Assembly: GCA_964406935.1 (NCBI GenBank)
Contig: CAYOTM010000003.1
Span: forward strand, 1 to 61,943
DNA from: an uncultured Gammaproteobacteria bacterium
GTDB taxonomy: Bacteria > Patescibacteriota > Patescibacteriia > Patescibacteriales > UBA12465
Reading direction: 5' to 3'
Length of the DNA stretch: 61,943 nt
A program made the translations under genes and the position numbers. The first letter of the stretch is position 1. Each line of letters opens with the position of its first letter. Positions 19,983 through 42,044 of the stretch are shown in pieces. The notes under the pieces are model-generated. The model was given only the letters and a program-made list of their open reading frames with translations, was not told where the DNA came from and did no database searches.

Positions 19983-21449
19983 TTAATATTTTTTTCCTGG
20001 TAAAAATCGACGAATATTTTCGAGGGCTGATTTTTTGGCATATTGTTTAATTCTTTCTTTAGCTCGCTTAGTTTTAACAAATTTTAGCCAGTCTTTGTTT
20101 GGGTGCTGGCGATTTTTTTCAGTAATAATTTCAATCATGTCGCCATTTTTTAATATTTGATCGAGTTTAGAGATTTTTTCGTTAATTAATACACCCGCTG
20201 CTCGGTTACCAACATTAGTATGTATAGCATAGGCAAAGTCGATGGGGGTGGCCCCCTCAGACAGCTCAAAAACATCTCCCTTGGGAGAAAAAACAAAAAT
20301 TCGATCGTGAAAGACATCAAGTTTAATTTTTTGCACAAACTCACTAGTATTGGAAACTTCTTTTTGCGCATCTAAAATCTCTTTTACCCAATTGGGTTGA
20401 GCATCAGTCTTCTTAGAAGATTTAGATTTATAGTACCAATGGGCGGCTAAACCATACAAAGACTCCTCATGCATTTCTTTGGTCCTAATTTGAAATTCCA
20501 CCGCTTTACCCTCGGGCCCAAAAATAGTGGTGTGTAAAGAACGATAACCATTAGGCTTAGGGACGGCAATATAATCCTTAAAACGATTAGGTTTGGGGCG
20601 CCATAAAGTATGAATAATTCCTAAGCTTTTATAACAATTATCAATATTATCCACAATAATTCTTAAGGCAAAAACATCATAAATTTCATTAAATTTTCTA
20701 TCTTTTTTTTGCATTTTTTGATAAATGCTGTATAAGTGCTTGAATCTAACTTCAATTTGATAATCAATGTCGGCTTCTTCCATTTTAGGAGAAATAATAT
20801 TTTTTATTTTTTGAAAATATTGATTTCTCTCAGCTCGTTTTTCTACTTCATATTCCTGTTCTAATTCATGAAATTTATCGGGAAATAAATATTTAAAACA
20901 AATATCTTCCATTTGCCATTTTAAGCGCCAAATCCCCAGCATGCCAGCAATCGGCGCATATATTTCTAAAGTTTCCTGAGCGATTCTTTTTTGTTTATTT
21001 TCTGGTAAAGAATCTAGGGTACGCAAATTATGTAAGCGATCACAAAATTTAATAAAAATTACTCGCGTATCATTCGCCATCGCTAAAAACATTTTTTTTA
21101 AATTTTCTCGATAACGCTCAATTCCTCGATATTTAATTTTTCCCAATTTAGTGATGCCTTTAACTAAATAATAAATTTCGGAACCAAATTTTTTGCGAAT
21201 TTCCTTTAAAGTAACCTGAGTATCTTCAGGAACATCATGTAACAGGCCGGCCGCAATTGTTGGTAAATCTGCCTTGATCTCGGCTAATAAATAAGCCGTA
21301 TGTAGGGAATGCTGAATATAAGGCTCGCCACCTTTTCTTAGTTGTTTTTGATGAGCTTTATCGGCAAAATCATAAGCCCGCCTCAGGAGATTAGAATTTT
21401 CTTGAGGGTGATTTTCTTGAAATTTTTTTATTACTCTTTCAATCGTCAT
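19983..21449 (-). CDS. rel: short bifunctional (p)ppGpp synthetase/hydrolase (HD + RelA/SpoT + TGS)
   Basis: HD motif LLHDVPEDT, synthetase motifs YRSLHTTI and EFQIRT, and a TGS-like C-terminus. At 488 aa the usual C-terminal regulatory domains are absent. Confidence 0.9.
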   Translation of the reverse strand: MTIERVIKKFQENHPQENSNLLRRAYDFADKAHQKQLRKGGEPYIQHSLHTAYLLAEIKADLPTIAAGLLHDVPEDTQVTLKEIRKKFGSEIYYLVKGITKLGKIKYRGIERYRENLKKMFLAMANDTRVIFIKFCDRLHNLRTLDSLPENKQKRIAQETLEIYAPIAGMLGIWRLKWQMEDICFKYLFPDKFHELEQEYEVEKRAERNQYFQKIKNIISPKMEEADIDYQIEVRFKHLYSIYQKMQKKDRKFNEIYDVFALRIIVDNIDNCYKSLGIIHTLWRPKPNRFKDYIAVPKPNGYRSLHTTIFGPEGKAVEFQIRTKEMHEESLYGLAAHWYYKSKSSKKTDAQPNWVKEILDAQKEVSNTSEFVQKIKLDVFHDRIFVFSPKGDVFELSEGATPIDFAYAIHTNVGNRAAGVLINEKISKLDQILKNGDMIEIITEKNRQHPNKDWLKFVKTKRAKERIKQYAKKSALENIRRFLPGKKY

Positions 21450-21486
21450 TTATTAGTTTTTTTATATTTTCTAAATTTTATTTATA

Positions 21487-21495
21487 TGGTATAAT
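21487..21495 (+). promoter_or_regulatory. extended -10 promoter element upstream of the giant-protein operon
   Basis: TGGTATAAT (TG-n-TATAAT) lies 78 nt upstream of the ATG at 21573. The -35 is weak. Confidence 0.4.
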
Positions 21496-21572
21496 ATTAA
21501 ATATTAAAAGGCTTAAATTGTTTAGCCTATTTAATAAAATTATAACATAATTATTTAGTAAATTAAATTAAC

Positions 21573-24221
21573 ATGAGCTGTAAAATTATCAAAGTTTTTT
21601 TACTAGTTATTTTTTCTTTTTTTGTAATTCAGACAATACCGGCTTTAGCCCAAGTGAATGAAGTTTATGGGCTTGATGGCCCACCAGTAGCTGGCATGGA
21701 AACCGCCGATGATCTTGACATTAAACAGGTGATTTCTAATATTATCTCCTGGGTTTTAGGATTTTTGGGTTTAATTGCTGTTTCAGTAGTAATGTATGCT
21801 GGTTTTTTATGGATGACATCGGGCGGAGTGGCTGATAAAATAAGTAGGGCCAAGAAAATGTTGATTAATGGTTTAATTGGTTTATTGATAATTATTTTTT
21901 CTTGGGTGATTGTTACCTTAGTTTTTAAAACAGTTTCGGACGCAATATTTGGCGGTGACTTTACCGATAAAATCCCTAGCCAATATTTTAGCCCCGGCTT
22001 TGGCGCTTTAGGAGTTTGTACTTTAAGTTATGTTTATCCTGAGCCGTGGCAAAAGGAAGTGCCCCGCAATACCACAATCATGGTAACCTTTAAGGAAAAG
22101 TTAAACCCTTTATCGGTTTGTATTGCTGACGATGGTAGTCCTTGTGATTGCAATCAAGCAGGGTGTAGTTTAATTAATTATAACAATCTCACTATTTATC
22201 CAAAAAATTTAGGGAACAGTGAAGAAAATTATTTAAAAAATGCGATTGCGCAACTAACTGAAGATCAAAAAACAATTATTATAATTCCTCAAGAATATTT
22301 AGGATCTTCTAGCGGTAATATAAGTTATGTAGTGAGATTATCAGGCTTAGAAAAAGAAAACAATGATTTAATTTTTAGTACCTGTGCCTCTGACTGGTTT
22401 GAGTGGGAGTTTGAAGTAAGTGATAAAATTGACCTTATCCCCCCCCAAATTTTATCAGGCGGTATTTTTCCGTTACCGGATGATGAAAAAGATAATAAAA
22501 TAGAAACTGTTGCGGTTAAAGCTCAAGGCAGTATTAGTGTTCAAGCTTGCCCAGGAATTTATCAAGCAGCTACTAATGAAAACCCAGTTCCTATTGGCAG
22601 CTCTGGCCCTGCTACGGCGACCGTTTATTCTGATTATAGTAAGCCTTATAATACACTAGAGCTTGTTGTTTTATCTAATAATAGCGTCCAACTAAAAAGT
22701 GGAGTCAATTTATTAGGAACAGCTAATTGGGTTAATAATTCTGTCACCTTTCCTGAATATATAACTTTAAATGTTGACAACTGGGAGGCAGGTAACTCTT
22801 GGACGGTGCAAGTTAATCAGAGACAATTAGCCGATACTTTGACTATTGGTAATCAGGTATATACTTTTGCGGAGGAGGCATCTAATATTAGTCAAATAAC
22901 TGTTCCTAGCCCTTGTAATTTAGGGGGCCAAGCTCAAAACATTGCTAATCAATTAAATAATCATCCTAACATCGCACCAACATTGAGTGGCACAACTGTA
23001 AATTTAGAAGCAAGATTAGCTGGTGTAGCTAGTAATTCAATTATTTTAGCCACCACCAATGAAACTGCTTTATTATTAGCGCCAATGAGCGGCGGGCTTA
23101 ATGGGGGCACTAGTTATATTATTAATGATAGTGCTGATGGGCCAATGAATTCTATTATTCAAATTAACTTTAACGAAGCGATTAATCCGTTTAATGTTTC
23201 TGGCCCAGCGACTTTAGTGCAGGATTATATTCGAGTAATAAACAACCAAGCTGGCGCTTTAGCGGCTGGTCAAGCTTGCGGCCAAAACAGTAATTGTTTG
23301 TCTTATAACTGTCAATCTGGCCAATGTATCGGCAATATTTTAGCTGGTGAATTTAGAATTAGCAATCGTTATCGGACAGTAGAGTTTATTAGTGATAATG
23401 AATGTGGCACCAATAGTTGTGGGGAAAAATTTTATTGCCTACCGGCTGATAGTAATCTTCGAGTAGAACTTAGGGCCGCTGATTTACGTTCTTGTGCCTC
23501 TGATAATGACTGTTTGATGTATCAACCATTTGGGCAGTGCCTAAATAGTGACTTAGGCTATCAGACTTGTCAAAACACTGATGGCAGATATTTTCCAACA
23601 TCTGATGTTAATAATTTAAATGGTGTTGTTGATGCCGCCTTTAATTCGCTTGATGGTAATCGTAATTCTTTTGCTGATGGGCCTGCTAGTTATTATAATG
23701 AAAATAATCCCAACCCTGACTCGGGCGATAATTATCGTTGGAGTTTTTTTATTAATGATGTGATTAATACTAATCCTCCAAATATTAATTTTGTTAGTCC
23801 ATTACAGGGATCTCCAGAGGTTTCCAGTATAGATCCAATAAAAATTTATTTTGACTCTTTAATGTTAAATAGTAGTTTACGATCCGGTTCGATTATTTTA
23901 ACTGGCCCCAGCGGAACGACTGAACATAAATTAATTAATTTAAGTACTGATGCGGGGGCCGTGGGCTATTGGATTGGTTCAGAAAATGTTGACTTAAATT
24001 TAGATGGTAAGGCTGATGTTACTTACGCCACCATTTTAAATACAGGATTACCGCCTTTAGTTACTTGGCGAGCCCAAGTTGGCTCAGGAGTGAGAAATAT
24101 TTATCAAAATTGTTTTAAGCCTAGCTCGGGTCCTGATTGTAGCGCTAGCGAAGAAAATCCTTCATGTTGTTTTGGTGCCCCAACCTCTATCTTAGATGCT
24201 CAGGGCAATTGCTTGCCATAA
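21573..24221 (+). CDS. giant surface protein A: VirB2/TrbC-like pilin module fused to an Ig-like/Cys-rich ectodomain
   Basis: 882 aa. Signal peptide (ALA|QV), then two hydrophobic helices flanking a TSGG..R.KK loop. Three SbsA/Big_5-like segments follow (VPRNTTIMVTFKEKLNP, MNSIIQINFNEAINP, IDPIKIYFDSLMLNS), plus Cys clusters. Confidence 0.75.
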   Translation: MSCKIIKVFLLVIFSFFVIQTIPALAQVNEVYGLDGPPVAGMETADDLDIKQVISNIISWVLGFLGLIAVSVVMYAGFLWMTSGGVADKISRAKKMLINGLIGLLIIIFSWVIVTLVFKTVSDAIFGGDFTDKIPSQYFSPGFGALGVCTLSYVYPEPWQKEVPRNTTIMVTFKEKLNPLSVCIADDGSPCDCNQAGCSLINYNNLTIYPKNLGNSEENYLKNAIAQLTEDQKTIIIIPQEYLGSSSGNISYVVRLSGLEKENNDLIFSTCASDWFEWEFEVSDKIDLIPPQILSGGIFPLPDDEKDNKIETVAVKAQGSISVQACPGIYQAATNENPVPIGSSGPATATVYSDYSKPYNTLELVVLSNNSVQLKSGVNLLGTANWVNNSVTFPEYITLNVDNWEAGNSWTVQVNQRQLADTLTIGNQVYTFAEEASNISQITVPSPCNLGGQAQNIANQLNNHPNIAPTLSGTTVNLEARLAGVASNSIILATTNETALLLAPMSGGLNGGTSYIINDSADGPMNSIIQINFNEAINPFNVSGPATLVQDYIRVINNQAGALAAGQACGQNSNCLSYNCQSGQCIGNILAGEFRISNRYRTVEFISDNECGTNSCGEKFYCLPADSNLRVELRAADLRSCASDNDCLMYQPFGQCLNSDLGYQTCQNTDGRYFPTSDVNNLNGVVDAAFNSLDGNRNSFADGPASYYNENNPNPDSGDNYRWSFFINDVINTNPPNINFVSPLQGSPEVSSIDPIKIYFDSLMLNSSLRSGSIILTGPSGTTEHKLINLSTDAGAVGYWIGSENVDLNLDGKADVTYATILNTGLPPLVTWRAQVGSGVRNIYQNCFKPSSGPDCSASEENPSCCFGAPTSILDAQGNCLP
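21651..21920 (+). repeat. copy 1 of the duplicated pilin-module coding repeat
   Basis: About 270 nt, collinear with 24343-24614. Long identical runs include ATGTATGCTGGTTTTTTATGGATGAC and TTTTTGGGTTTAATTGCTGTT. Confidence 0.85.
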
Positions 24222-24252
24222 TTATAGCCATAATAATTTTTAATATATTATC

Positions 24253-27200
24253 ATGAAACGCCCAAATTATTTTTATTTAATTTTTTTCAGCTTGTTGTTG
24301 GGAGCCCTTACTTTATTTCTTGTTAATACTTCAGCCTTGGCTCAAGTAAGTGATGTTTATGGGCTTGATAGCCCGCCAGTAACTGGCATGGAAACAGCTG
24401 ACGACTTAGATTTAAAAGATGCTATTTCTAGGGCCATCTCTTTTGTTTTAGGTTTTTTGGGTTTAATTGCTGTTGTTGTTGTGATGTATGCTGGTTTTTT
24501 ATGGATGACCTCAGGTGGAGCAGTGGAACGAATTGATAGGGCGAAAAGAATGTTAAAAAATGGCTTGATTGGTTTATTAATAATTATTTTTTCTTGGGCC
24601 ATCGTCACTTTAGTAATTAATACAGCGATTAATTTTCCTGGTATTGGCTCGGGAGTGGTTTGTCAAGACGGTGACACTAAGCCCTGTGGTTGCGGTGGCG
24701 TTAGATATTGTTTTGATGGTGCCTGGGGTGTTTGTGAGGGCTCTGATTGTAGTACCCTTCCACCAGGAACCGGGGGTAGTAGTTGTGATGCCAATCCATT
24801 AACACCAGAGTGTGACATTGACAATGATGCTTGCGATCCTAGTTGGTATTGTGATGGCGCTTCTTGTACCTGCAAAGCGCTTGGTAGTATTGGTTCGCCC
24901 TGTAGTAGTGATCCTCTAGGGTCTTGTGTCCCGGATAATAATTTATGTGGTCAGTATTTAACTTGTTCTGATGCTTGTGTCTGTGAAGGGGGTCCGGTGA
25001 TTTTAGATATTATACCAGTTGGCGGATTTTGTTCTAACAATATTAATACCCCTTGTCTCAGTAATGATGATTGTGGGGCGGGTACTTGTGACACCACTAC
25101 TCCCAATGGAGCGATAGATAATTTTATTACTATTTTTGGTTTAAATTTTGGTGATTATCAATCTGGGGTTAGTCAAGTCCTATTTTTTAACAATAGTTTG
25201 CCTGGCGGTGTTCCGGGAAACTTGCCTAGTGACATTAATCCTACTTGCAGTAATCATTGGACCGATACTCAAATCATCATTGCTATCCCAGCTGGAGTTG
25301 ATCTTGGTCCAATTGTAGTGAAAACAGCTGATGGTCAAGAAGATTCTAGTAATGCTGGCCCCGGTCCAGTTTTAGTTGACTTTCAACCTAATAACATTGC
25401 TCGTCCTGGTTTATGTGAAATTGATCCTCAATCAGGGGTAGCTGATGATTTAATTAATTATCAAGGAATCAATTTATTTAATGGTGAAGCTTATTTTGGT
25501 AGCTATACTCAAAACATTAAAGCGGCTGATTCTAATTTTAATGATTCTCAGGGAATAACTGGTAGTGCCTCGGTCCCTTATATTGGGGCTGGCCAAGCTA
25601 GCACTTTTGTAGCTGGCACCATTGCTGGTTTTTTACAAAAAAGCAATTATTTATATTTTACTAAAAATCAAGAACCTCAGGCGACGCCTTTTATTTCTAG
25701 TTTTGAGCCCAGCCAAGGAACGATTGGCCAATATATTACTATTTATGGTAGTGGTTTCGGCGATTTTAAGGGTAATAGTAGTGTTTATTTAGGTGGCAAT
25801 GAGGTTAATTATACTTTTCCAGAGGTTTGCGCTAATTCAGTTTGGGATAATAATAAAATTATCGTTAAGGTTCCCGAAGGAATTGCTAATGGTGATTATA
25901 CAATTAATTTAAATATTGGTTCCTTAACGATTAGCTCTGAACAATTAAATCCAGATAAGTTCACGGTTAATACTAGCTTGCCTCTGCCTCCAAGCTTATG
26001 TCGCGTTTCTCCTATTAGAGGACAAGCTGATTATTCAGTAAAACTATGGGGAGAATATTTTGGGCAAACAAATTCTAGTGCTCAAGCAGTTTTTCATGTT
26101 AATAAATTATTTCTTGGGCTTATTCAAAAAGATGGTACAGCTGATTTATTAGAAGCTAAGGTTCCAGTGGGGGCAATTACTGGCCCACTTAAAGTAGTTA
26201 ATACTAGTAATTTATTAGCTAGCAATAATTTTAATTTTGAAATTGGTCCTTGTCAAACCGATGCTGATTGCGGTCTAGATATTTGTTGTCCAGCTGGAAC
26301 CTTTAAGGCTAATCGTTGTGAAACAACTTTAAATGATTGTTCTTTAGATATTCCCAGTTCCGTTTTTGAATGGAGTTTTAGTACTGGTTTTTCAGGTGAT
26401 GGTGGAAATGGTGTAGGTACTGATAGTTGTGAGGGCTTAGCTCATTTATTGGGTGCTTGTCAGGTTGATGAATTCTGTCCTAATTCGCCCGGTTTATGTT
26501 CAATTTCTCCTTTTGGACAAGCCATTAGTTCTTGTGATAGTTCTTGTAATAGCATTAGTGATTGTGTGGGCAATCAATGTACTTTTGTTTCCTCCTTAGA
26601 TAAATGTAATTTAAACGGCTCTACTTGTTCGGCTGATCAGCCCTTTACTTATGAGTTGGGCGGAGGGACCTATGAAACTACTCGTTCTTGTCAGTTGTTT
26701 AGCGGTCAAGGTCATTGGTATATTCCTATTAAAACTTCTTGCCCTAGTGGTTGGATTAATATTGGTTATGGTTGCAGGTCAATAGAAAATTGTAATGCTT
26801 GCATCGCTGGTTTTAGTTGTGCTGATTTGGGTAGCGGCGGAACCTGTGTTTCAAGTAAGTTGTGTTCGGCTAGCGCCACTTGCGTTAATGATGAATGTTT
26901 ACGCAATCAATCATTTTGTGAATGTTGTTGTGAAATTGGTCAGAGCGAAAGCGATTGTTGTTATCCTTTACAATGTGAAGGAACTTGCGGCTCTGATTTA
27001 GCTGATGATGGCGTCGGACTAGGACGTTGTTCTGGTTGCACAACTTATGTTGGGGGAGTGATTGATCAAGCATTGTCTAACTCGGCTTGTAACTGCCCTG
27101 GTTTTTCTGGTAAATATTGTGACACTAATATTGGTTCGGGCGTTTGTGTCGACTGTTCTAATCTCGGAGAAGATGACTGTCGAGCTAATAGTGATCAATG

Positions 27201-30126
27201 TTGTTTTGATGCCAAAACTAGTGCTTGTCGCGGAGGTAGCGGTCAAATAATTAGCAGTGATCCGAGTGATCCTAATTTTGGTTCTTGTGCTTATTATGAT
27301 TGCGATGCAGCTGATCCTGGAACTTGCGCGATTGATGCGCCGACCCCAACTGGTGATTATTTTAGTCAAGCAGCTTGTGAATCAGGTTGTCCTAGTAATT
27401 ATAGTGAAGCTTTTTGTAATCAATTTTCTTATGATAAAATTTCTTGTGATAATTATAGCTTCTGTTGTTATAATTTTGCCACGGAAGTTTGTAGTAAAAA
27501 TGATCCAATAGTGGGTGGTGATGATAATGGTTATTGTCCTTTTTATAACTGTCAAACAGCTGAACCAACTTTATGTGATGCTAACCCACTTTTAGAAGGG
27601 ACTTATAATAGTCTTTCAGCTTGTGATCTTGGTTGTGCTAGTTCTAGCGGTTTAGGATTAAGTTGTTTTAATCGCAAAAGTTTAACTTGCCAGGCCAGTT
27701 TATGTGGTTTTCCTTTTTCTTGCTTACAAGAAGATGGTTCGACTATTACTAGCTTAGATACACCACCAGATTGTGGAACTTGTTGTTGTAGTATGGCTGA
27801 TCCAATTGCTTCTTGTAATTTAGGAATTCCAAATACCTCTTTAGTTTGTCAGCCTAATCAATCTCCTTGTACTGGTGATAATCGAGGTCTGTGTTGTGGC
27901 TGCACCCAGGACGCGGATTGTGGAGACGAGGCATTCTTAGGTTGTGGTTATGACACATGTTGTCGAGCTCGACCATCTGTTTTATCTGATCAGGTGCTTC
28001 CACCTACTGGGGCGGTTAATGTTTGTCGTAATGCGATGTTAACTATTCCTTTTGATCAGAGAATGGACGCCGGTTCTTTTGGCGGTAATGTAATGTTATT
28101 AGAAGAACACGATAGTGGTCCTTGTCCAACTGGCACTTTTATTTTTACAGAAAATTTACCTCAAAAATCTAATTTCTTAACTCGCTTCTTGGTCCAAGTT
28201 AAATCTTTATGGAATCGTTATTTTTATAGCCCCGCTTTAGATACTGCTTTAGCTTTAACACCTGATAGTAGCAAATTATATTGTTTAGTCCCTGGAGTAG
28301 CTCAGTATGAAAATTTAGTTGACTCCAGTATTTTATATTATTATCCTCGTCGTTTATTTAAAGATAATACTAATTATTTCTTTATTGTTAAGGGCTATGA
28401 GTCGGCTGAAAATCAATCTTTAGGCGTACTTAGTTATTGGGGAATAGCGATGAATGGACCAGGGCTATTAGTTAATGGTTCATTTGTTCCTAGTGATAGT
28501 TATCAATTTAATCAAGTTACTTATTCTAAAGCTTATATTACTTCTTTTAAGACGATGTCTGATCAAGCAACTAACTCTGGTGTTTGTACGGTTGATTATG
28601 CCTCGGTTACGCCCCCTTCCTATTTATTTAATACTTCAGAAAATGATTTAAACGAAAATGATGCCAATCCTGGTGATTCTACTTTTGATACGGTGCGAAA
28701 TAAAGATAAATTATTTACAGCTAAGGCTTATAGTTTTGATGGGCAAGCAATTACTCCAACTACGGGTTATTATTGGGAGTGGGATTTTGAATTAGAAAAA
28801 ACTGGTGTGGCCGATATTGATCCAGTGGTTGGCTTAAAAAATAATCAAGCGTTTCTTTCCGTGATTGACGGCGTTCAAGATGATAGCACTTTTTTACGGG
28901 CGACTGTTAAGATGGATCGTTTCAGCGTTGGTTCCGCTTGTAATTCTGCCAGCAGTTGTGTTTGTGATAGTTTAAATAACTGTTCTAGTAATTGTTGTAA
29001 CTTTGACTTTACTGGTGATGGTACAATTGCCCGCTCTAATATTAATGTTTTTATTTGTCGTAATCCCTGGCCAGCGGTTAATCCTGATTATTCCTGGAGC
29101 CCTTGGGTGGATCTTTATAATTATAAATTTTATTATTGTCGAGATGATGGTGGGCCAACCTTAGCTGATGATTTGCCAGCCATTATTGATCCGGCTGTTA
29201 TTCAAGGAGCTAGTAATTCAATTTGTAGTGTCAGCGGGGCTAGTTGTAGTAATTTAGGAGGGCCTTGTGGTCCTGATAATTCAGGGATATGTATTTGGAA
29301 CGTTTTGAGAGAATCATATTTTTTCCGGCAAACAACGCCGAGCGCTGGTCAAATTACTGAGGCTATTAATCAGGCGGTCGGTAATACAATTTTATTAAAG
29401 TGGGAAGGGAATTCTGATTTAATTTATAATTCTAACCCAGCTTTTATGGGAACCTATCGGATTTACTATTCTCAAGCTAATGCTGGAAGTTTTTCTTATA
29501 TTGAAATTAAACCAAGTGATCCAGTTGATCCTGACAGCGGCTTAAGCACTCAAGCTTGCACCCCAGTTAATCCTAGCGCTGGTCAAAACTATACTTGTCA
29601 GAGAATAGTTAGAGACTTAGAGAATAATAAAAGCTATATTTTTAGAGTATCAGCAGTTTCTCGAACTAAAACTGAAACTTTTTTTCGTAATCAAAAAACT
29701 GTGACTCCAACTGATCAAGTGCCCCCAAGCGTGCCTAGCGGTTGTAGCTTTTCATTAATAACTAATGATAATACTATTAAATTTACCTGCTCTATCGTTT
29801 CTGCTGATACTAAAACTTTACGCTTATACCATGGAGTATCACCAAATTTATACGGGCAATCGTTTGATTTCGCGGTTGATGAAGTGCCGTTTTCAGTATC
29901 AGTAGATGCATTCTTATTTAAAGAAGGAACTAATTATTTTACAGTTTCAGCTTTAGATGGGGCAGGCAATGAAAGTGCTAAGTCAAATATGATGAATGCC
30001 ACCATTCAATTTTTTCAATGTTATTGTGAAGGGGGCGAGGAATGTCAAACTTGTGGTCAATTTAATAATATATCAACTTGTGAAAATAATGACGATTCTT
30101 ACAGCTGTGTTTGGTCGACCCAGTAA
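24253..30126 (+). CDS. giant surface protein B: pilin module + IPT/TIG repeats + large Cys-rich region + FN3 domains
   Basis: 1957 aa. Same N-terminal module as protein A. At least four IPT/TIG-like units (ITIFGLNFGD, ITIYGSGFGD, VKLWGEYFGQ). A Cys-rich block spans about 650 aa, and I hand-count roughly 100 or more Cys overall. C-terminal FN3-like units (YRIYYSQ...YIFRVSAVS). Confidence 0.75.
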   Translation: MKRPNYFYLIFFSLLLGALTLFLVNTSALAQVSDVYGLDSPPVTGMETADDLDLKDAISRAISFVLGFLGLIAVVVVMYAGFLWMTSGGAVERIDRAKRMLKNGLIGLLIIIFSWAIVTLVINTAINFPGIGSGVVCQDGDTKPCGCGGVRYCFDGAWGVCEGSDCSTLPPGTGGSSCDANPLTPECDIDNDACDPSWYCDGASCTCKALGSIGSPCSSDPLGSCVPDNNLCGQYLTCSDACVCEGGPVILDIIPVGGFCSNNINTPCLSNDDCGAGTCDTTTPNGAIDNFITIFGLNFGDYQSGVSQVLFFNNSLPGGVPGNLPSDINPTCSNHWTDTQIIIAIPAGVDLGPIVVKTADGQEDSSNAGPGPVLVDFQPNNIARPGLCEIDPQSGVADDLINYQGINLFNGEAYFGSYTQNIKAADSNFNDSQGITGSASVPYIGAGQASTFVAGTIAGFLQKSNYLYFTKNQEPQATPFISSFEPSQGTIGQYITIYGSGFGDFKGNSSVYLGGNEVNYTFPEVCANSVWDNNKIIVKVPEGIANGDYTINLNIGSLTISSEQLNPDKFTVNTSLPLPPSLCRVSPIRGQADYSVKLWGEYFGQTNSSAQAVFHVNKLFLGLIQKDGTADLLEAKVPVGAITGPLKVVNTSNLLASNNFNFEIGPCQTDADCGLDICCPAGTFKANRCETTLNDCSLDIPSSVFEWSFSTGFSGDGGNGVGTDSCEGLAHLLGACQVDEFCPNSPGLCSISPFGQAISSCDSSCNSISDCVGNQCTFVSSLDKCNLNGSTCSADQPFTYELGGGTYETTRSCQLFSGQGHWYIPIKTSCPSGWINIGYGCRSIENCNACIAGFSCADLGSGGTCVSSKLCSASATCVNDECLRNQSFCECCCEIGQSESDCCYPLQCEGTCGSDLADDGVGLGRCSGCTTYVGGVIDQALSNSACNCPGFSGKYCDTNIGSGVCVDCSNLGEDDCRANSDQCCFDAKTSACRGGSGQIISSDPSDPNFGSCAYYDCDAADPGTCAIDAPTPTGDYFSQAACESGCPSNYSEAFCNQFSYDKISCDNYSFCCYNFATEVCSKNDPIVGGDDNGYCPFYNCQTAEPTLCDANPLLEGTYNSLSACDLGCASSSGLGLSCFNRKSLTCQASLCGFPFSCLQEDGSTITSLDTPPDCGTCCCSMADPIASCNLGIPNTSLVCQPNQSPCTGDNRGLCCGCTQDADCGDEAFLGCGYDTCCRARPSVLSDQVLPPTGAVNVCRNAMLTIPFDQRMDAGSFGGNVMLLEEHDSGPCPTGTFIFTENLPQKSNFLTRFLVQVKSLWNRYFYSPALDTALALTPDSSKLYCLVPGVAQYENLVDSSILYYYPRRLFKDNTNYFFIVKGYESAENQSLGVLSYWGIAMNGPGLLVNGSFVPSDSYQFNQVTYSKAYITSFKTMSDQATNSGVCTVDYASVTPPSYLFNTSENDLNENDANPGDSTFDTVRNKDKLFTAKAYSFDGQAITPTTGYYWEWDFELEKTGVADIDPVVGLKNNQAFLSVIDGVQDDSTFLRATVKMDRFSVGSACNSASSCVCDSLNNCSSNCCNFDFTGDGTIARSNINVFICRNPWPAVNPDYSWSPWVDLYNYKFYYCRDDGGPTLADDLPAIIDPAVIQGASNSICSVSGASCSNLGGPCGPDNSGICIWNVLRESYFFRQTTPSAGQITEAINQAVGNTILLKWEGNSDLIYNSNPAFMGTYRIYYSQANAGSFSYIEIKPSDPVDPDSGLSTQACTPVNPSAGQNYTCQRIVRDLENNKSYIFRVSAVSRTKTETFFRNQKTVTPTDQVPPSVPSGCSFSLITNDNTIKFTCSIVSADTKTLRLYHGVSPNLYGQSFDFAVDEVPFSVSVDAFLFKEGTNYFTVSALDGAGNESAKSNMMNATIQFFQCYCEGGEECQTCGQFNNISTCENNDDSYSCVWSTQ
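24343..24614 (+). repeat. copy 2 of the duplicated pilin-module coding repeat
   Basis: See 21651-21920. My hand alignment of the encoded peptides gives about 74 identical residues out of 96. Similarity stops abruptly after the second helix. Confidence 0.85.
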
Positions 30127-30187
30127 TAAACTAGTCGCTTGTTAATTGTTTCTAGTGAATCAACCTTAAATAATTTATTATATTTGT

Positions 30188-33100
30188 ATGTTTAAAAAAC
30201 TATCATTTAGACTAGCTACTTATTTAGCAGCTTTTGTTATTATTAGTCTAATTGTTTTTTTAGAATTTAAAAGCATTGAAGCTCAAACCCCTCCAGCAAT
30301 TCCTATGGCGACTGATGAGCGAGACGCCATCGCGGTGCGTGTATTGCCTAATCCAAACAATTATAGCGTTACTTACTGGTATAATAGTCAAGGATTTTCT
30401 GGCTCTCCCCAGTCTTTAGTGGTTGATGGCTATCAGGCTATTCGTGATGGTCGCACTATTTATGTTAATGCCGCTAACATCGCTGGCAATAATTTATATA
30501 CTAATATTTATTTAATTTCTCACAATCAAGATCCTGATACAAAAACCATTGATATTTTAGGAAGAATTATTAATCATTGGAAATTCAACAGCAATTTAAC
30601 TGACGCTGGAAAATGTTCAATCGCTACTAAATATTGTCAATCTAATAATGATTGTGACGACGGAACGGTTTGTCAAGAAATTGGTGATTCACTTTCAATG
30701 TGTCGAGATGCCAAGCAAATTAGTTGTTTAACTGATGCTGAGTGTCCCGGTGGTTTATTTTGTGATAGTGTTAAAGCTAAAGTTACTCGTGATGTTCAAC
30801 GTTTAGGTGCTTTAAGCGATATTAGGGCGTCCCTTACTAGATATCAATCAGCTAACGGTACTTATCCAATTTTAGGAGCGGGCACTTATATTAGTCATAA
30901 TTCTGTTTCTACTTGGCCGAGTTGGCGCAATGTTTTTCTTTCACAGTTAGGATTAAATCCTAATTTAATTGATCCAATTAATATTTTAGGACCCTGTCCT
31001 GATCATGACTTAACTACTTGTTGGAATGAAACAACCGGCACCTTTGCTGATCCGATTAATAATAATCAATTAAATATGCCGGGCGGCAGCTACGCCATCG
31101 CTTATTCTAGTGATCCTAACGGTTCTAATTATTTTCTCTGTTCAGTTTTAGAAAGTCATATGTTAGGTTATAATACTCCCGAGGGTGCCATGTCGAACCA
31201 AGCCTGTGTAACCGGTGGCACTGGTTATACCGGTATTGCTACTGGCAATCAACCACCCCAATTAGTTTCTTATTATCTTCAGGGAGAGTCGGGTCAAGAA
31301 TTTAGTGGATTTTTTCGAGTAATGGATCCTGAAAATAATCCTTTAAGCTGGGTCCTAGATACTGATGCCACTTCTTGGCCCGGTTGGAGTTTAGCCCCAA
31401 CTTTACAAGACACAGGCAATCCCAACCAGAAAAGAGTTTACGCCTCTAGAGCGGGGAATGCTGGTAGTTATCTCGTAACCTTAAAAGTGAGTGATTCTTT
31501 GGGGGCTAACATATCAACCACCGTTCCTATAATTATTGGTAATCCAGCTCCGTTTATTGAAATGAGTGATATTGACTATTATCTAAATCCCATAAATCCT
31601 TTAGAATTTTCTTTTAATATTACTGATAATAATTTAAGTAATACCCCAACCAACGTTTATACCTTATCATCAATTAGTTCGCCTAACATTTTAGTCGATA
31701 GCCTTAAAACTCACAGTTATCTTGGTAATACCCTGACTGTTAATGTCAGCAAGCTAATACCCACTAGTTTAAAATTCTATCAAGATACTGTTTCTAGAGT
31801 AAATATTTTGGCCAGAGACACTATGTTAGCGCAATCTACTTTAGATTTTAAGATTAATTTAAAAATTACTCCGCCTCGCTTAGATTTTGTCTGTCCGCGG
31901 CAAATTAGAGCCGGATCTCAATATTTTTGTTTAATTGGGTCTGATCAGCAAGGTGATTTTAATATTCAATATTCTTCCAATACCCTGCCTAGTAACATTG
32001 CTCTTCATAAATTGCTCGAGACCGAAGAATTAATTGATTATTATAATTATGATTCTTCCAATATTTTTGTTGCTAATAAGAGTGGTTCTTATGTTTCCGA
32101 TTGGATTTTAACTGGTCAAGGCGCTGATAATAAAATTGGCGCTCATAATATTATTATTAAAGCTACTAATAATTATGGAGCGTCGACTACGCGTCAGTTT
32201 GTTTTAAATATTAATAATTATTGTGGCGACGGTGTAAAGCAAACCCCTAATACTGAGGGTCGTGGTGGTTTTTATAATGACGGCAATGAAGATTGTGATG
32301 GTAATTATGGAATCACCACTAATCCAGAAAGTAGTAGTATTAATCAACAATATGCTTGTAGTACCCCGGTTAATTCTAAAGTTATTTTTCCTATTTTAAC
32401 CGGTGATCATTGTATTTTTAAATCACCTTATAATGGGGGCGGCTACTGTGGTGATGGTTTATGTCAAGCAACTTTTGAAAATTCTCTTACGTGTCCTGTA
32501 GATTGTGGTGGCATAGGAATAAATCCACCTGTCTGCGGTAATGGGATAGTAGATGCTAATGAGCAAGATACTAATGAGCAATGCGAAATAATTAATAATC
32601 AAATTAACCCCACCCCCAACTGTGTTGATGTTCCTGGCGCTAATTATAATAGTGGTAGTTTGTTGTGTCAAAATTGTCAATATAATTATAGTGCCTGTAC
32701 CTGTCAACTTGGTTATTATGATTGCGATTATTCTATCGGTTGTGAATCAACTACAGCGTGTCCCACCTGTGTTACTTCTTGTGATGATAAGGCTGGTTTA
32801 GCTGCGGTTAATGATGGCTTGAATTGTGGTTATGATTTAAGTCGAGGGACAAACTGTGGCACTATTGATTGTCCATCTTGTAATCCCAGTCAAGTTTGCG
32901 CTAAAGGTTATCCAGACACTGATTGTTCTATAATTAATTCTACTGACTGTCCCACGCCTGATAATAATAAGGGTTTTTGTACTTTTGATAATGGGTGTAG
33001 CATGGTGGTTGATGCTCCAAATATTTTTGAAAGGGGCAGAATGTTTTGTATGTCTACCCATGACGCAATTACTATTTGTCCTAATACATCAGAAAAACAA

Positions 33101-33439
33101 GTTTATGAGAAGGTTTATAATATTAATAATGTTTGCTATGTTAGTAATAGCGACTGTTCAAATTTTGCTTCTCCCGGTATCCACTACAAAGTTTCTATTA
33201 ATGAGAATAATGGCAATCTTATAAATTATTGGGCGACTTATATGGGCAGCAACTTTGCTGTCAGTAGTTGTTCGGGGGGCTCTGGTGATGTGCCACCACC
33301 ATCAGATTACGAGTGTTGTTGTAAGACCCAGCCTTGTGATCCGAAATGTAACTCATATTTAGATCAACCTACTTGTACGGCCAATAAAGATGAAAACTGC
33401 TCTTGGATTATTTCTGGTAGCGCCCCATGTTATCAATAG
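30188..33439 (+). CDS. giant surface protein C: signal-anchored, Ig/cadherin-like and CGDG/CGNG cysteine-repeat protein
   Basis: 1083 aa with an N-terminal hydrophobic anchor. An Ig-like segment (NQPPQLVSYY...YLVTLKVSDSLGAN). Cys repeats of the YCGDG.. / VCGNG..D..E.CE type. The C-terminal Cys module is shared with protein B. Confidence 0.7.
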   Translation: MFKKLSFRLATYLAAFVIISLIVFLEFKSIEAQTPPAIPMATDERDAIAVRVLPNPNNYSVTYWYNSQGFSGSPQSLVVDGYQAIRDGRTIYVNAANIAGNNLYTNIYLISHNQDPDTKTIDILGRIINHWKFNSNLTDAGKCSIATKYCQSNNDCDDGTVCQEIGDSLSMCRDAKQISCLTDAECPGGLFCDSVKAKVTRDVQRLGALSDIRASLTRYQSANGTYPILGAGTYISHNSVSTWPSWRNVFLSQLGLNPNLIDPINILGPCPDHDLTTCWNETTGTFADPINNNQLNMPGGSYAIAYSSDPNGSNYFLCSVLESHMLGYNTPEGAMSNQACVTGGTGYTGIATGNQPPQLVSYYLQGESGQEFSGFFRVMDPENNPLSWVLDTDATSWPGWSLAPTLQDTGNPNQKRVYASRAGNAGSYLVTLKVSDSLGANISTTVPIIIGNPAPFIEMSDIDYYLNPINPLEFSFNITDNNLSNTPTNVYTLSSISSPNILVDSLKTHSYLGNTLTVNVSKLIPTSLKFYQDTVSRVNILARDTMLAQSTLDFKINLKITPPRLDFVCPRQIRAGSQYFCLIGSDQQGDFNIQYSSNTLPSNIALHKLLETEELIDYYNYDSSNIFVANKSGSYVSDWILTGQGADNKIGAHNIIIKATNNYGASTTRQFVLNINNYCGDGVKQTPNTEGRGGFYNDGNEDCDGNYGITTNPESSSINQQYACSTPVNSKVIFPILTGDHCIFKSPYNGGGYCGDGLCQATFENSLTCPVDCGGIGINPPVCGNGIVDANEQDTNEQCEIINNQINPTPNCVDVPGANYNSGSLLCQNCQYNYSACTCQLGYYDCDYSIGCESTTACPTCVTSCDDKAGLAAVNDGLNCGYDLSRGTNCGTIDCPSCNPSQVCAKGYPDTDCSIINSTDCPTPDNNKGFCTFDNGCSMVVDAPNIFERGRMFCMSTHDAITICPNTSEKQVYEKVYNINNVCYVSNSDCSNFASPGIHYKVSINENNGNLINYWATYMGSNFAVSSCSGGSGDVPPPSDYECCCKTQPCDPKCNSYLDQPTCTANKDENCSWIISGSAPCYQ

Positions 33440-33460
33440 TCAATAAACTAACATAACTCT

Positions 33461-33787
33461 ATGAAATCATTAAATGATCCTCAAACTAAAAAAGTATTTA
33501 TAATTGTTTTAAGTATTGTTTTATTAATCAGTTTAATTTTAATTGTTGTTTTTTTCATCCCTAAAAAATCTTTCGCCCCCCAAATTCCTAGTTCATCGCC
33601 TGGCAGTGAAGAACCAATTATTATCCCCCTAGAATATCTTAGCCCAGAGGAGCTCGATCAATTAGGAGTTGATTCTACTATTCAAGCTCAAATAATCAGT
33701 CGTGATCCACTAATCTATAAGATTATTAATTCCGAAGAAGATATTGTGACCGATATTCGTCCTTTAATGCAGCCCCTTCGGGAATAA
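33461..33787 (+). CDS. small single-pass membrane protein
   Basis: 108 aa, one TM (VFIIVLSIVLLISLILIVVFFI). Starts 21 nt after protein C, on the same strand. Confidence 0.5.
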   Translation: MKSLNDPQTKKVFIIVLSIVLLISLILIVVFFIPKKSFAPQIPSSSPGSEEPIIIPLEYLSPEELDQLGVDSTIQAQIISRDPLIYKIINSEEDIVTDIRPLMQPLRE

Positions 33788-33864
33788 TTTTAATAAATAT
33801 TTAATAAATTTACTTTTAATTTATAAATAATCGTCCCTTTGTTGGCCGAATAATTAAAAAATAT

Positions 33865-34977
33865 ATGTTTGATAATTTATCTAAATCAGAGCAGACTAAA
33901 AAAAATGAAACAGTTGATGATATTTTTGCTGATACCGATCAAGGAGATTTGCCAAATGATGCCACTAAGATGGTCACTCAGCAACCTAATTCTTCAGCTC
34001 CCACTATGAAATCTATGCCTACTATGAAATTATCTTCAGAGGCTGAAAAATTAGATCCGCAAATTGCTAACGACCCCCTAATGGCTGATGAAGAGGAGGT
34101 TAGAGCTGGTGGTTCTAATAAAATAATGAAACCTCTAATTATCGTGTTAATAGTAGTTTTGCTGGCCGGTGGTGCTTATTTTGCTTTAAGATTTTTTGGC
34201 GTCCTTGATCAATTTTCAGAATCAACGCCCGCTACGCCCATCGTGACCGATAGTAATCAAAATTTAGATGATTTTGATGACATATTAGATTCCCCTGAAT
34301 TTATTGACCCCTTTTTATTACTTGACGATGAAGAAGATCTGGAGGATGTGGTTATCTTGCCAGATATTATTGATGAGGATGAATATATTGAACCCTTAGA
34401 TCCAGCCGAAATTAAAATTTCTTGGCGGGATGTTCCCTTGTTAGATAGTGATAACGATGGTTTAAGTGATATTACTGAGGAGTTGATTGGGGCTGATCCT
34501 TTTAGCGCTGATACTGATGGCGATGGCTATAGTGATTATCAAGAGCTAATGAATGGTTATAATCCTTTAGATGAGGGGACTTTGCCCCCTAATTTTTCTG
34601 TGCTAAACTTTACTGACAGTGGTTTATCATTTTTTTATTCACCTACTTGGTCAGTTAATCGTCTAAATGACAATACTTGGCAACTAAAATCACCAATTGA
34701 TCAAACTAGTGTAAAAATTACTCGTGAGCAAAACCAATTGCCAGATATTTTCACTTGGTATGCCTCCACTTTTTCTGACCTTAATCCAGTGACCAGTGAT
34801 CGTTTAGTTTATAATTCGCAATTAGGAGCGGGAATTGTGACAGTTGATGGTTTTAATTTAATGTTTGCCTCAGCTGATAATAACTATATTTTAAGATTAT
34901 TTTTAGAAATTGATAATAATGATATAAACCACAGCGGACCGCTGGCTTTATTTATCAATACATTATCTCAACAATAA
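33865..34977 (+). CDS. single-pass membrane protein with thrombospondin-type-3-like Ca-binding repeats (paralog 1)
   Basis: 370 aa with a TM at IIVLIVVLLAGGAYFAL and an acidic linker. DSDNDGLSDITEE...DTDGDGYSDYQE repeats. The C-terminal ~140-aa domain is shared with the next ORF. Confidence 0.65.
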   Translation: MFDNLSKSEQTKKNETVDDIFADTDQGDLPNDATKMVTQQPNSSAPTMKSMPTMKLSSEAEKLDPQIANDPLMADEEEVRAGGSNKIMKPLIIVLIVVLLAGGAYFALRFFGVLDQFSESTPATPIVTDSNQNLDDFDDILDSPEFIDPFLLLDDEEDLEDVVILPDIIDEDEYIEPLDPAEIKISWRDVPLLDSDNDGLSDITEELIGADPFSADTDGDGYSDYQELMNGYNPLDEGTLPPNFSVLNFTDSGLSFFYSPTWSVNRLNDNTWQLKSPIDQTSVKITREQNQLPDIFTWYASTFSDLNPVTSDRLVYNSQLGAGIVTVDGFNLMFASADNNYILRLFLEIDNNDINHSGPLALFINTLSQQ

Positions 34978-34983
34978 ATTATT

Positions 34984-36009: not shown

Positions 36010-36051
36010 ATATAATTTAAAGAGTTGACGATAAATTAGAGTAATTGATAA

Positions 36052-36084
36052 AAAAATCACCTTCTGAATGTAGAGGTGATTTTT
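36052..36084. terminator. bidirectional terminator between the giant-protein operon and clpP
   Basis: AAAAATCACCT - 11-nt loop - AGGTGATTTTT. Confidence 0.75.
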
Positions 36085-36109
36085 ATTTAATATTAGATAA
36101 AATTTTTAT

Positions 36110-42038: not shown

Positions 42039-42044
42039 ATTTTT

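What the first reader, a model, noticed from the sequence alone, without database searches (positions are those of the whole stretch)
21651..24614. VirB2/TrbC-like pilin module duplicated and fused to two different giant ectodomains
Proteins A and B begin with the same ~96-aa unit. It has a signal peptide cleaved at ALA|QV, a short acidic segment (GMETADDLD), helix 1 (VLGFLGLIAV.VVMYAGFLWM), a loop TSGG....R.K(K/R), and helix 2 (LIGLLIIIFSW.IVTLV).

This two-helix hairpin with a basic loop is the topology of conjugative VirB2/TrbC pilins. It also fits the small T4SS-pilin-like proteins common in CPR genomes, which are normally ~100 aa and stand-alone. Here the module carries 750-1800 aa of adhesin-like sequence.

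The coding DNA (21651-21920 versus 24343-24614) keeps long identical runs. By hand alignment about 74 of 96 residues are identical. Similarity ends sharply after helix 2. That pattern suggests recent duplication or gene conversion of an anchor cassette with swapped payloads. The ~270-bp direct repeats, 2.7 kb apart, could also mediate deletion or shuffling.
Basis: partly seen in the sequence, partly recalled or inferred. Interest (0 to 1): 0.8.

Follow-up and report, generated by a model that had tools for sequence, protein, structure and literature searches.

The report
Pilin-anchored giant surface proteins, paired
Two neighbouring genes of an ultra-small (Patescibacteria/CPR) bacterium encode giant adhesin-like surface proteins that each start with a copy of the organism's conjugation-type (VirB2-like) pilin; the pair is old and conserved in many related species, and the two pilin copies are kept alike by repeated gene conversion.

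Summary
ORF A (21573-24221, 882 aa) and ORF B (24253-30126, 1957 aa) share a ~98-aa N-terminal module. It is 78% identical in protein (E 7e-43) and 77% in DNA over 292 nt, and similarity stops after helix 2.

Both modules pass Pfam's own threshold for PF18895 T4SS_pilin, the VirB2-like pilins of Patescibacteria. Each has a signal peptide, two hydrophobic helices and a basic loop.

"Recent duplication with swapped payloads" is wrong.
- Synonymous sites are well diverged (pS 0.55, dS ~1), and the longest identical run is 26 nt.
- The A-B pair, usually followed by C, sits beside relA/hisS in at least 68 species-level genomes, mostly Ca. Falkowbacteria/ABY1, with orthologous ectodomains.

Gene conversion is supported. 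Within-genome A-B module identity (mean 66%; window 78%) exceeds ortholog identity (~52%) in 89% of comparisons. Some relatives show 84-89% nt tracts with the same boundaries.

The closest stand-alone relative is the first gene of a separate 6-7-gene pilin array, which shares lineage-specific residues with A and B.

The ectodomains are strings of Ig-like domains resembling S-layer proteins and adhesins. Best reading: pilin-hairpin-anchored surface proteins. Incorporation into a T4SS pilus is open (~0.3). I found no paper describing this architecture.

The parts
21573..24221 (+). Gene A: 882-aa pilin-module-anchored surface protein (signal peptide, VirB2-like hairpin, Gly-rich linker, string of Ig-like beta domains, conserved Cys-rich C-terminus)
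   Evidence: ORF and translation. Pfam T4SS_pilin at 50-117 and Big_5 at 733-784. AF2 mean pLDDT 81.8. Foldseek hits to S-layer, alpha-2-macroglobulin MG-domain and adhesin folds. About 25 full-length homolog clusters and 80 genome loci.
21573..21650 (+). A signal peptide (aa 1-26), predicted signal peptidase I site ALA|QV
   Evidence: Hydrophobic segment 8-26. An A-x-A|Q position is conserved across 136 modules. SignalP was not run.
21651..21935 (+). A pilin module (aa 27-121): acidic exposed N-segment, TM1 (~58-81), basic loop TSGGVADKISRAKK, TM2 (~100-118)
22008..24218 (+). A ectodomain (aa ~146-882), all-beta, Ig-like repeats
   Evidence: AF2 pLDDT 85-95. Foldseek hits include SbsC, Sap, ECAM and FMG1B.
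24253..30126 (+). Gene B: 1957-aa pilin-module-anchored, Cys-rich (6.6% Cys) surface protein with IPT/TIG and Ig/FN3-like domains
   Evidence: About 10-15 homolog clusters of 1558-3821 aa. P0003 is 99.8% identical to B, from Logan SRR8925735.
24253..24342 (+). B signal peptide (aa 1-30), predicted site ALA|QV
24343..24627 (+). B pilin module (aa 31-125)
   Evidence: Pfam T4SS_pilin 33.2 bits and TrbC 25.7 bits. NCBIfam NF045849, a Mycoplasma ICE pilin-like protein, scores 31.3 bits, below its cut-off of 40.
21642..21933 (+). Direct DNA repeat, copy 1 (gene-conversion tract, equal to the module)
24334..24625 (+). Direct DNA repeat, copy 2 (77% identical to copy 1)
30188..33439 (+). Gene C: 1083-aa Cys-rich secreted or anchored protein without a pilin module. 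It follows B in at least 39 related loci and is probably part of the same operon.
   Evidence: B and C are both missing from the 8 A-only loci.

Best explanation
A, B and C form an old, conserved cell-surface operon of an ABY1/Falkowbacteria-like Patescibacterium.

How A and B are placed (inferred from sequence and model). They are exported by Sec and cut by signal peptidase I at ALA|Q. They are then held in the cytoplasmic membrane by a VirB2-type pilin hairpin, with the N-terminus out, a basic loop in the cytoplasm and the C-terminus out. A flexible Gly-rich linker of ~25 aa then projects a 740- or 1830-aa chain of Ig-like, Cys-rich domains outside the cell. These ectodomains most likely act as adhesins or surface-layer proteins that contact the host or neighbouring cells.

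Origin of the hairpin (shown). It is not a generic anchor. It is a close paralogue of the first ('leader') gene of the lineage's stand-alone pilin array, and it keeps all the signature residues of that family.

Why the two modules look alike (shown by comparison, mechanism inferred). The cause is episodic gene conversion between the tandem copies, probably also involving the leader pilin gene, and not recent duplication. The conversion tract always runs from the signal-peptidase site to the end of helix 2, while the ectodomains evolve as separate orthologous families.

Still open. It is not known whether the hairpin stays in the membrane, as I assume by default, or is pulled into a T4SS pilus.
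For: Family membership: PF18895 above threshold for A and B. 31/31 related modules hit PF18895 and 12/31 hit TrbC. A sub-threshold NCBIfam hit to a pilin-like conjugal transfer protein.

Topology and fold.

Ectodomain nature: Big_5 and TIG domains. Foldseek hits to S-layer proteins SbsC/Sap/SbsB, alpha-2-macroglobulin MG domains, cadherins and SdrE.

Conservation:
- 570 relatives in species-representative genomes.
- A is followed by B in 68 of 80 loci.
- C follows B in at least 39 loci.
- The relA/hisS/signal-peptidase neighbourhood is the same.

Old age of the copies: pS 0.55, dS ~0.99, dN/dS 0.15.

Concerted evolution:
- Within-genome A-B identity averages 0.656, against 0.515 for shuffled pairings (0 of 10,000 shuffles reach it).
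- The within-genome paralogue beats the ortholog in 88.9% of 9112 comparisons.
- In the window, A-B identity is 0.776 against at most 0.52-0.54 to any ortholog module.
- A and B of the window share 21 derived residues that are rare elsewhere.
- Identical amino acids use the same codon 57% of the time, against 32% expected (p = 1.3e-5).
- Within-genome pS ranges from 0.27 to 0.91, against ~0.75 between genomes.
- Relatives L038, L045 and L017 have 84-89% nt tracts with exact runs of 44-68 nt and the same boundaries.
- In two MAGs where A and B lie on different contigs, modules group by type (A-A 66%, B-B 71%, within-genome 54% and 60%).

Link to stand-alone pilins:
- P0031, the first gene of a 7-gene array, is 57-60% identical to the window's modules and shares 13 of the 21 window-specific states.
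- In complete genome CP066698.1 the first gene of a 6-gene array, 76 kb away from the cassette, is 58% and 65% identical to that genome's own A and B modules. In the exposed N-segment the figure is 72%, against 35% to other genomes.
Against: - No experiment exists. Localisation, signal-peptide cleavage and adhesin function are all inferred.
- Pfam's name 'pilin' is itself an inference. Patescibacterial T4SS pili have not been demonstrated biochemically (PMC12857230, PMC10633639).
- The module profile finds no solved VirB2/TraA structure by sequence, and the hairpin fold search is non-specific.
- Neither the A-B-C cassette nor, in CP066698.1, the pilin array lies next to virB4.
- The strong conservation of pilin signature residues is more than a passive membrane anchor would need. 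This pulls towards the pilus rival.
- The unlinked-pair control rests on two related MAGs only.
- P0031 cannot be assigned to the window's genome.
Confidence: 0.6

Rival explanations
1. A and B are pilus subunits. Their pilin module co-polymerises with the stand-alone leader pilin, at the tip, at the base or sparsely along the shaft. A T4SS-type pilus would then display 80-200-kDa adhesin domains. This would be the VirB2-class counterpart of the tip-located pilin-adhesin fusions of type IV pili such as CofB and TcpB.
For: - The module keeps the residues that are invariant in the family and shared with stand-alone pilins.
- It is under purifying selection, dN/dS 0.15.
- It tracks the lineage's own leader pilin.
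- The C-terminus exits on the outer face and is followed by a ~25-aa disordered linker.
- In solved F- and T-type pili both pilin termini lie on the pilus exterior (my own knowledge, not tested here).
- Relatives with the cassette have VirB4.
- The pilin array is essential in a cultured Saccharibacterium (PMC10633639).
Against: - There is no T4SS gene next to the cassette or next to the array.
- Every-subunit decoration by such large domains looks sterically implausible, so only minor incorporation is possible.
- The co-variation can be explained by gene conversion alone. It is strongest in the disordered N-segment, not in the helices.
- Where A and B are unlinked they drift apart, which argues against a strict need to match.
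Confidence: 0.28
2. A and B are precursors. The ectodomain is cleaved from the hairpin after export, in the way TrbC and VirB2 lose C-terminal residues. This would release a normal small pilin plus a secreted or S-layer protein.
For: There is a disordered Gly-rich linker directly after helix 2. C-terminal processing is known for IncP TrbC (my own knowledge).
Against: No conserved cleavage motif was seen in the linker of 25 A orthologs. No dedicated protease gene lies in the operon. The genome lineage already has 6-7 stand-alone pilin genes.
Confidence: 0.07
3. One reading: a recent duplication of an anchor cassette that is being shuffled onto different payloads, with the 270-bp repeats driving deletions.
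For: The module is repeated 2.7 kb apart, and similarity stops sharply at its end.
Against: - dS is ~1 and the longest identical run is 26 nt.
- Both fusions and their tandem order are conserved across at least 68 species-level genomes.
- The long-tailed relatives fall into just two payload families, 40 A-like and 15 B-like, plus three singletons.
- No chimeric or deleted locus was found.
Confidence: 0.03

Closest known systems
Stand-alone VirB2-like pilins and pilin arrays of Patescibacteria (Pfam PF18895; Quinonero-Coronel et al. 2025, PMC12102498; essential pilin array of Southlakia epibionticum, Wang et al. 2023, PMC10633639)
   Same: Same Pfam family, above threshold. Same signal peptide, two-helix hairpin and basic loop. 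A and B are closest to the first gene of such arrays, at 57-65% identity.
   Different: The known proteins are ~115-150 aa and stand alone, in arrays whose members share ~25% identity. Here the hairpin carries 740-1830 aa of ectodomain, sits in a housekeeping neighbourhood, and its two copies are 78% identical.
TrbC/VirB2/TraA conjugative pilins of diderm T4SS (Pfam PF04956)
   Same: Hairpin topology with a basic loop and an AXA|Q signal-peptidase site. There are cross-hits to PF04956 (B 25.7 bits; 12 of 31 relatives, best E 2.4e-8).
   Different: The hits are below Pfam's threshold for A and B. The module profile detects no solved pilin. A giant C-terminal domain rules out head-to-tail cyclisation unless it is cleaved off. 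The host is a monoderm.
Tip-located minor pilins of type IV pili that carry large C-terminal domains (CofB, TcpB); an analogy recalled from memory
   Same: The design principle is the same: a pilin-type N-terminal module fused to a large beta-rich adhesive domain.
   Different: The fold and machinery are unrelated. A and B have no class III (prepilin peptidase) leader and use a signal peptidase I type site.
Gram-positive S-layer proteins and Ig-repeat adhesins (SbsC/SbsA Ig-like, Sap, SdrE)
   Same: Big_5/SbsA-Ig and TIG domains. Foldseek hits to 2ra1, 8rw9, 4aq1 and 5wtb. UniRef names one ortholog 'SbsA Ig-like domain-containing protein'.
   Different: Those proteins attach through SLH domains or LPXTG/sortase, not through an N-terminal pilin hairpin.

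Membership tests
Pfam PF18895 T4SS_pilin (Patescibacterial VirB2-like pilins) | HMM score above the curated gathering threshold (26.6 bits) | tested here: met
   Whole proteins score A 30.0 and B 28.4 bits. Isolated modules score 34.8 and 33.2 bits. 31 of 31 related modules match.
Pfam PF18895 T4SS_pilin (Patescibacterial VirB2-like pilins) | Sec signal peptide followed by two TM helices joined by a short basic loop | tested here: met
   Hydropathy and AF2 hairpins. The AXA|Q site is conserved. SignalP and TMHMM were not available.
Pfam PF18895 T4SS_pilin (Patescibacterial VirB2-like pilins) | Small stand-alone protein of ~110-150 aa | tested here: not met
   A is 882 aa and B is 1957 aa. Typical members are 115-295 aa.
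Pfam PF18895 T4SS_pilin (Patescibacterial VirB2-like pilins) | Encoded in a pilin array or next to virB4/T4SS genes | tested here: not met
   Neighbours are relA, hisS, lepB, queA, ruvB, clpP and secDF. There is no VirB4 in the window. A VirD4-like gene lies 25 kb away.
Pfam PF18895 T4SS_pilin (Patescibacterial VirB2-like pilins) | Polymerises into a T4SS-dependent pilus | not testable with these tools
   This needs microscopy or proteomics. It has not been shown for any member, according to PMC12857230.
TrbC/VirB2 conjugative pilins (PF04956) | HMM score above the gathering threshold (27.9 bits) | tested here: not met
   B scores 25.7 bits (E 1.3e-5). A has no hit. 12 of 31 relatives hit at E below 0.01.
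TrbC/VirB2 conjugative pilins (PF04956) | Sequence or fold similarity to solved pilin structures | tested here: inconclusive
   The module profile against PDB sequences gives no hit. Foldseek with the hairpin model gives only generic helical hairpins, none at E 1e-3 or better.
Type IV pilus pilins (class III signal peptide) | Short basic leader, G|F(M)xxxE motif, cleavage by prepilin peptidase | tested here: not met
   The N-termini of A, B and C lack the motif, although a prepilin peptidase gene is present at 42045-42860.
Ig-repeat surface proteins (Big_5/SbsA-Ig, IPT/TIG) | Pfam domain hits above threshold and a beta-sandwich fold | tested here: met
   Big_5 scores 37.5 bits against a cut-off of 23.6 in A. 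TIG scores 43.1 against 20.9 in B. The AF2 model is all-beta with pLDDT 85-95, and Foldseek matches S-layer and adhesin folds.

The most novel reading that the evidence does not exclude
The T4SS-type pilus of ABY1 Patescibacteria is a composite filament. Giant Ig-repeat adhesins (A and B) would enter it through an N-terminal copy of the leader pilin, which gene conversion keeps matched to that pilin. This would be the first conjugative-class (VirB2) pilin-adhesin fusion. It would also explain how these epibionts grip their hosts and why their pilin arrays matter.
Probability: 0.28. Interest if true: 0.85.

Novelty: new variant of a known kind. Interest (0 to 1): 0.62.

Why it matters
T4SS genes and VirB2-like pilin arrays are near-universal in Patescibacteria. 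They are essential in the one species tested genetically, yet nobody knows what the pilins do.

This locus gives that question a handle:
- The same pilin module is also the N-terminus of two conserved families of giant adhesin-like proteins, found in hundreds of species.
- The fused copies track the sequence of the lineage's own leader pilin.

That leads to concrete, testable predictions. Are A and B in the pilus or in the membrane? Do they bind host surfaces? It also gives clear protein targets for antibodies, proteomics and cryo-ET.

The locus is also a clean natural example of domain-limited concerted evolution. A 290-nt tract is homogenised, while the remaining 2.3-5.5 kb of each gene diverges.

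I found no description of this architecture in four full-text literature searches. It is visible in precomputed Pfam annotations, so the novelty lies in recognising and interpreting it, not in discovering the sequences.

Tried and rejected
- **Single-sequence word-index search with the module.** It returned one hit only. I replaced it with the exhaustive profile search.
- **Module profile against PDB sequences.** No hit.
- **Foldseek with the hairpin model.** Only generic helical hairpins, so uninformative.
- **Foldseek with the whole A model.** Only generic multi-Ig proteins; no enzyme or specific ligand-binding fold.
- **phmmer of A, B and C against the PDB.** Nothing significant.
- **NCBIfam on A, B and C.** Only a sub-threshold pilin-like hit.
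- **Promoter and terminator scan of 21300-36200.** Counts were close to the shuffle expectation, so it says nothing about operon structure. The A-B gap is 31 nt and has no terminator-like site.
- **Recent duplication.** Rejected on dS and conserved synteny.
- **Repeat-mediated deletion.** Of the A-seeded loci, 8 have A without B or C. Of the B-seeded loci, 4 have B without A upstream. In two MAGs the partner is intact on another contig, so this is relocation, not deletion.
- **Generic anchor on many unrelated payloads.** Among the profile hits, the tails fall into only two families plus three singletons. That sample is biased towards relatives of A and B.
- **T4SS genes beside the stand-alone array in CP066698.1.** None within 10 kb on either side.
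- **A shared Cys-rich C-terminal motif in B and C.** The protein similarity is weak (shuffle p ~0.017), there is no DNA similarity, and it is not conserved in orthologs.
- **Assigning P0031 to the window's genome.** Not possible. The exact A and B proteins occur only in SRR8925735, while P0031 occurs in SRR8925737 and SRR11702756.
Full report
**1. The observation**

The window carries three co-directional large ORFs:
- A: 21573-24221, 882 aa
- B: 24253-30126, 1957 aa
- C: 30188-33439, 1083 aa

BLASTP of A against B gives one significant segment, A24-121 versus B28-125. It has 76 of 98 residues identical (78%), E 7e-43, and nothing else is significant.

At the DNA level the repeat is 21642-21933 versus 24334-24625. 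It is 292 nt long and 77% identical, with 2692 nt between starts. Similarity begins at the predicted signal-peptidase site ALA|QV, so the signal-peptide cores differ. It stops just after the second hydrophobic helix.

A local HMM built from the module finds only these two copies in the 62-kb window. One phrase is overstated: 'long identical runs', since the longest exact run is 26 nt.

**2. What the module is**

Both proteins pass Pfam's own threshold for PF18895 (T4SS_pilin). The scores are 30.0 and 28.4 bits for the whole proteins, and 34.8 and 33.2 for the isolated modules, against a cut-off of 26.6. B also hits TrbC/VirB2 (PF04956) at 25.7 bits, just under that family's 27.9 cut-off.

Of 31 related modules and stand-alone relatives, all 31 hit PF18895 and 12 hit TrbC, with a best E of 2.4e-8. 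NCBIfam gives sub-threshold hits to a Mycoplasma ICE 'pilin-like conjugal transfer protein'.

Hydropathy shows a signal peptide plus two hydrophobic segments and no further strong TM segment. AlphaFold2 models a helical hairpin, both in full-length A (H50-82/H87-125) and in the isolated module.

Two tests gave no information. A profile of the module finds no solved pilin by sequence. A fold search with the hairpin returns only generic hairpins. Membership of the Patescibacterial pilin family is therefore solid. The link to classical VirB2 rests on HMM cross-hits.

**3. How unusual the fusion is**

An exhaustive profile search of 1.84 billion cluster representatives finds 57,315 clusters at E up to 1e-3 and 12,819 at E up to 1e-10. 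I examined 151 proteins, namely the 150 best hits plus P0001:

| Architecture | Number |
|---|---|
| One N-terminal module plus a tail of more than 300 aa (up to 3821 aa in total) | 55 |
| Several tandem hairpins | 76 |
| One N-terminal module plus a 60-300 aa tail | 9 |
| Stand-alone | 11 |

This ranking favours relatives of A and B and multi-copy proteins. A word-index search with a broader profile is dominated by 115-150-aa proteins that NCBI calls 'pilin'.

The long tails fall into an A-like family (40), a B-like family (15) and three singletons.

**4. Age and conservation**

The A ectodomain has about 25 full-length homolog clusters at 30-52% identity. B has about 10.

Scanning one genome per GTDB species with an A-family alignment finds 570 relatives. 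The 80 best loci are mostly Ca. Falkowbacteria or 'Patescibacteria group' MAGs. In 68 of them an 830-1010-aa A ortholog is immediately followed by a 1500-2640-aa B ortholog, and both carry an N-terminal module. C follows B in at least 39 loci. The upstream relA/hisS/signal-peptidase neighbourhood is also shared.

A scan seeded with B gives 60 loci with A upstream and 4 without.

Between the window's two modules, pS is 0.55 (dS ~0.99), pN is 0.136 and dN/dS is ~0.15. The duplication is therefore ancient, both fusions are stable orthologous families, and 'recent duplication with swapped payloads' is refuted.

**5. Concerted evolution**

If the duplication predates these species, the A and B modules of one genome should be no more alike than orthologs in different genomes. 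The opposite is seen.

Amino-acid level:
- Mean within-genome A-B identity is 0.656, against 0.515 for shuffled genome pairings (0 of 10,000 permutations reach it).
- Median A-A and B-B identity between genomes is 0.52.
- The within-genome paralogue beats the ortholog in 88.9% of 9112 comparisons.
- In the window the figure is 0.776, against at most 0.52-0.54 to any of 67 ortholog modules.
- A and B of the window share 21 residues found in 10% or fewer of the other 134 modules.

DNA level:
- At identical amino acids the same codon is used 57% of the time, against 32% expected from the codon usage of the same genes (binomial p = 1.3e-5).
- Within-genome pS ranges from 0.27 to 0.91 (median 0.67), against ~0.75 between genomes.
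- Relatives L038, L045 and L017 have tracts that are 84-89% identical over 268-292 nt, with exact runs of 44-68 nt. The boundaries are the same: signal-peptidase site to the end of helix 2.

There is also a control. In two related MAGs where A and B lie on different contigs, the modules group by type. A-A identity is 66% and B-B is 71%, against 54% and 60% within the genome.

Together this points to episodic gene conversion between tandem copies.

**6. Link to stand-alone pilins**

The closest stand-alone relative of the window's modules is P0031 (129 aa). It is 57-60% identical and shares 13 of the 21 window-specific residues. It is the first gene of a 7-gene array of ~130-aa pilins. It comes from SRR8925737, a run whose accession is close to that of SRR8925735, which holds the window's organism. 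I could not prove that it belongs to the same genome.

The pattern repeats in the complete genome CP066698.1:
- The A-B cassette lies at ~837 kb.
- A 6-gene array lies at ~761 kb.
- The array's first gene is 58% and 65% identical to that genome's own A and B modules (ranks 14 and 1 of 136).
- In the exposed N-terminal segment the identity is 72%, against 35% to other genomes.

In six further MAGs it is likewise the first gene of a six-gene array that scores best against the A/B model, at 88-102 bits against 41-73 for the other members. The fused modules are therefore copies of the lineage's 'leader' pilin. The cause could be conversion, co-selection or both.

No VirB4 lies within 10 kb of that array. 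None lies in the window either, which holds only a VirD4-like ATPase at 49745-51544. Three cassette-bearing relatives are listed as ABY1 and VirB4-positive in Table S1 of PMC12102498.

**7. The payloads**

The AlphaFold2 model of A has mean pLDDT 81.8. It shows a disordered acidic N-segment, the hairpin, a disordered linker (121-145) and then beta domains at pLDDT 85-95.

Foldseek matches multi-Ig proteins:
- S-layer proteins SbsC, Sap and SbsB
- alpha-2-macroglobulin MG domains
- cadherins
- SdrE
- an algal flagellar membrane glycoprotein

Pfam sees Big_5 in A and IPT/TIG in B. B is 6.6% Cys and C is 5.2% Cys. No enzymatic domain was detected. The payloads look like adhesins or surface-layer proteins.

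**8. Mechanism**

*Shown:* family membership, topology features, conserved operon, domain-limited concerted evolution and kinship with the leader pilin.

*Inferred:* Sec export, signal peptidase I cleavage, an N-out/C-out hairpin in the membrane, the ectodomain displayed outside, and an adhesive role.

I commit to membrane-anchored display as the default state (confidence 0.6). The main rival is that the hairpin lets A and B enter the T4SS-type pilus as minor or tip subunits (0.28). Cleavage of the ectodomain from the pilin is a minor rival (0.07).

**9. Literature and novelty**

Known so far (PMC12102498, PMC10633639, PMC12857230):
- VirB2-like pilins occur in 1948 Patescibacterial assemblies.
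- They form arrays of 2-11 small genes averaging 25% identity.
- The array is essential in Southlakia epibionticum.

Four full-text searches found no description of pilin modules fused to giant ectodomains, or of their concerted evolution. Databases annotate orthologs as 'hypothetical' or 'SbsA Ig-like domain-containing protein'.

I rate this a new variant of a known kind, with interest 0.62. It is not a one-off oddity. It is a widespread, undescribed architecture that makes the function of Patescibacterial pilins more testable.

Noticed in passing
Proteins P0002 (1775 aa), P0006 (1147 aa), P0004 (552 aa) and ~70 others among the 151 proteins examined: These are 'poly-pilin' proteins. A single polypeptide holds 2-17 tandem VirB2-like hairpins behind one N-terminal signal peptide. 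The linkers are 10-45 aa, often contain Cys, and there are no internal signal peptides. They look like genuine polytopic or polyprotein versions of pilin arrays rather than read-through artefacts, but this was not verified.
   Followed up: partly
window 49745-51544 (+): A 599-aa VirD4/TrwB-like coupling ATPase (TrwB_AAD_bind, TraG-D_C) with a treble-clef zinc finger, encoded among housekeeping genes. According to PMC12102498, T4CP homologs far from virB4 are typical of Patescibacteria.
   Followed up: partly
L229 (CP066698.1:751420-771800), L083, L085, L183-L193, L227: Stand-alone arrays of 6-7 pilin genes recur in these relatives. They are preceded by a UPF0102/YraN-like gene where the upstream region was annotated (L084, L183/L229). 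Only the first array gene resembles the A/B modules. No VirB4 lies within 10 kb in CP066698.1.
   Followed up: partly
window 33865-34977 and 34984-36009 (+); DNA repeat 34418-34577 / 35453-35612: Two tandem paralogous proteins with bacterial TSP3 (calcium-binding) repeats lie just downstream of C. They share a 160-nt direct repeat at 70% identity. Homologs are present in 24-28 related loci.
   Followed up: no
window 39723-42860 (+): A Wzy_C/O-antigen-ligase-like protein with TPR repeats (771 aa) is followed by a prepilin peptidase (A24). This indicates type IV pilus biogenesis and possibly pilin glycosylation in the same organism.
   Followed up: no
L034, L044, L047, L054-L056, L058, L059 (A only); L105, L122, L131, L157 (B without A): In one sub-clade A and B are unlinked, and the A-only loci also lack C. 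In two MAGs the partner gene sits intact on another contig, and there the modules cluster by type rather than by genome.
   Followed up: yes
window 30010-30126 and 33320-33439 (C-termini of B and C): B and C both end in a ~35-aa Cys-rich tail with similar Cys spacing (C..C........TC..N.D...C.W). The similarity is weak (shuffle p ~0.017), has no DNA counterpart and is not seen in orthologs, so it may be chance.
   Followed up: yes
Record titles of L003, L004, L011 and many others: Dozens of MAG records that carry this Patescibacterial cassette are titled 'uncultured Gammaproteobacteria bacterium' (TPA assemblies). One is labelled Balneolaceae and one Candidatus Saccharimonadales. These look like mislabelled or default taxonomy.
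   Followed up: no
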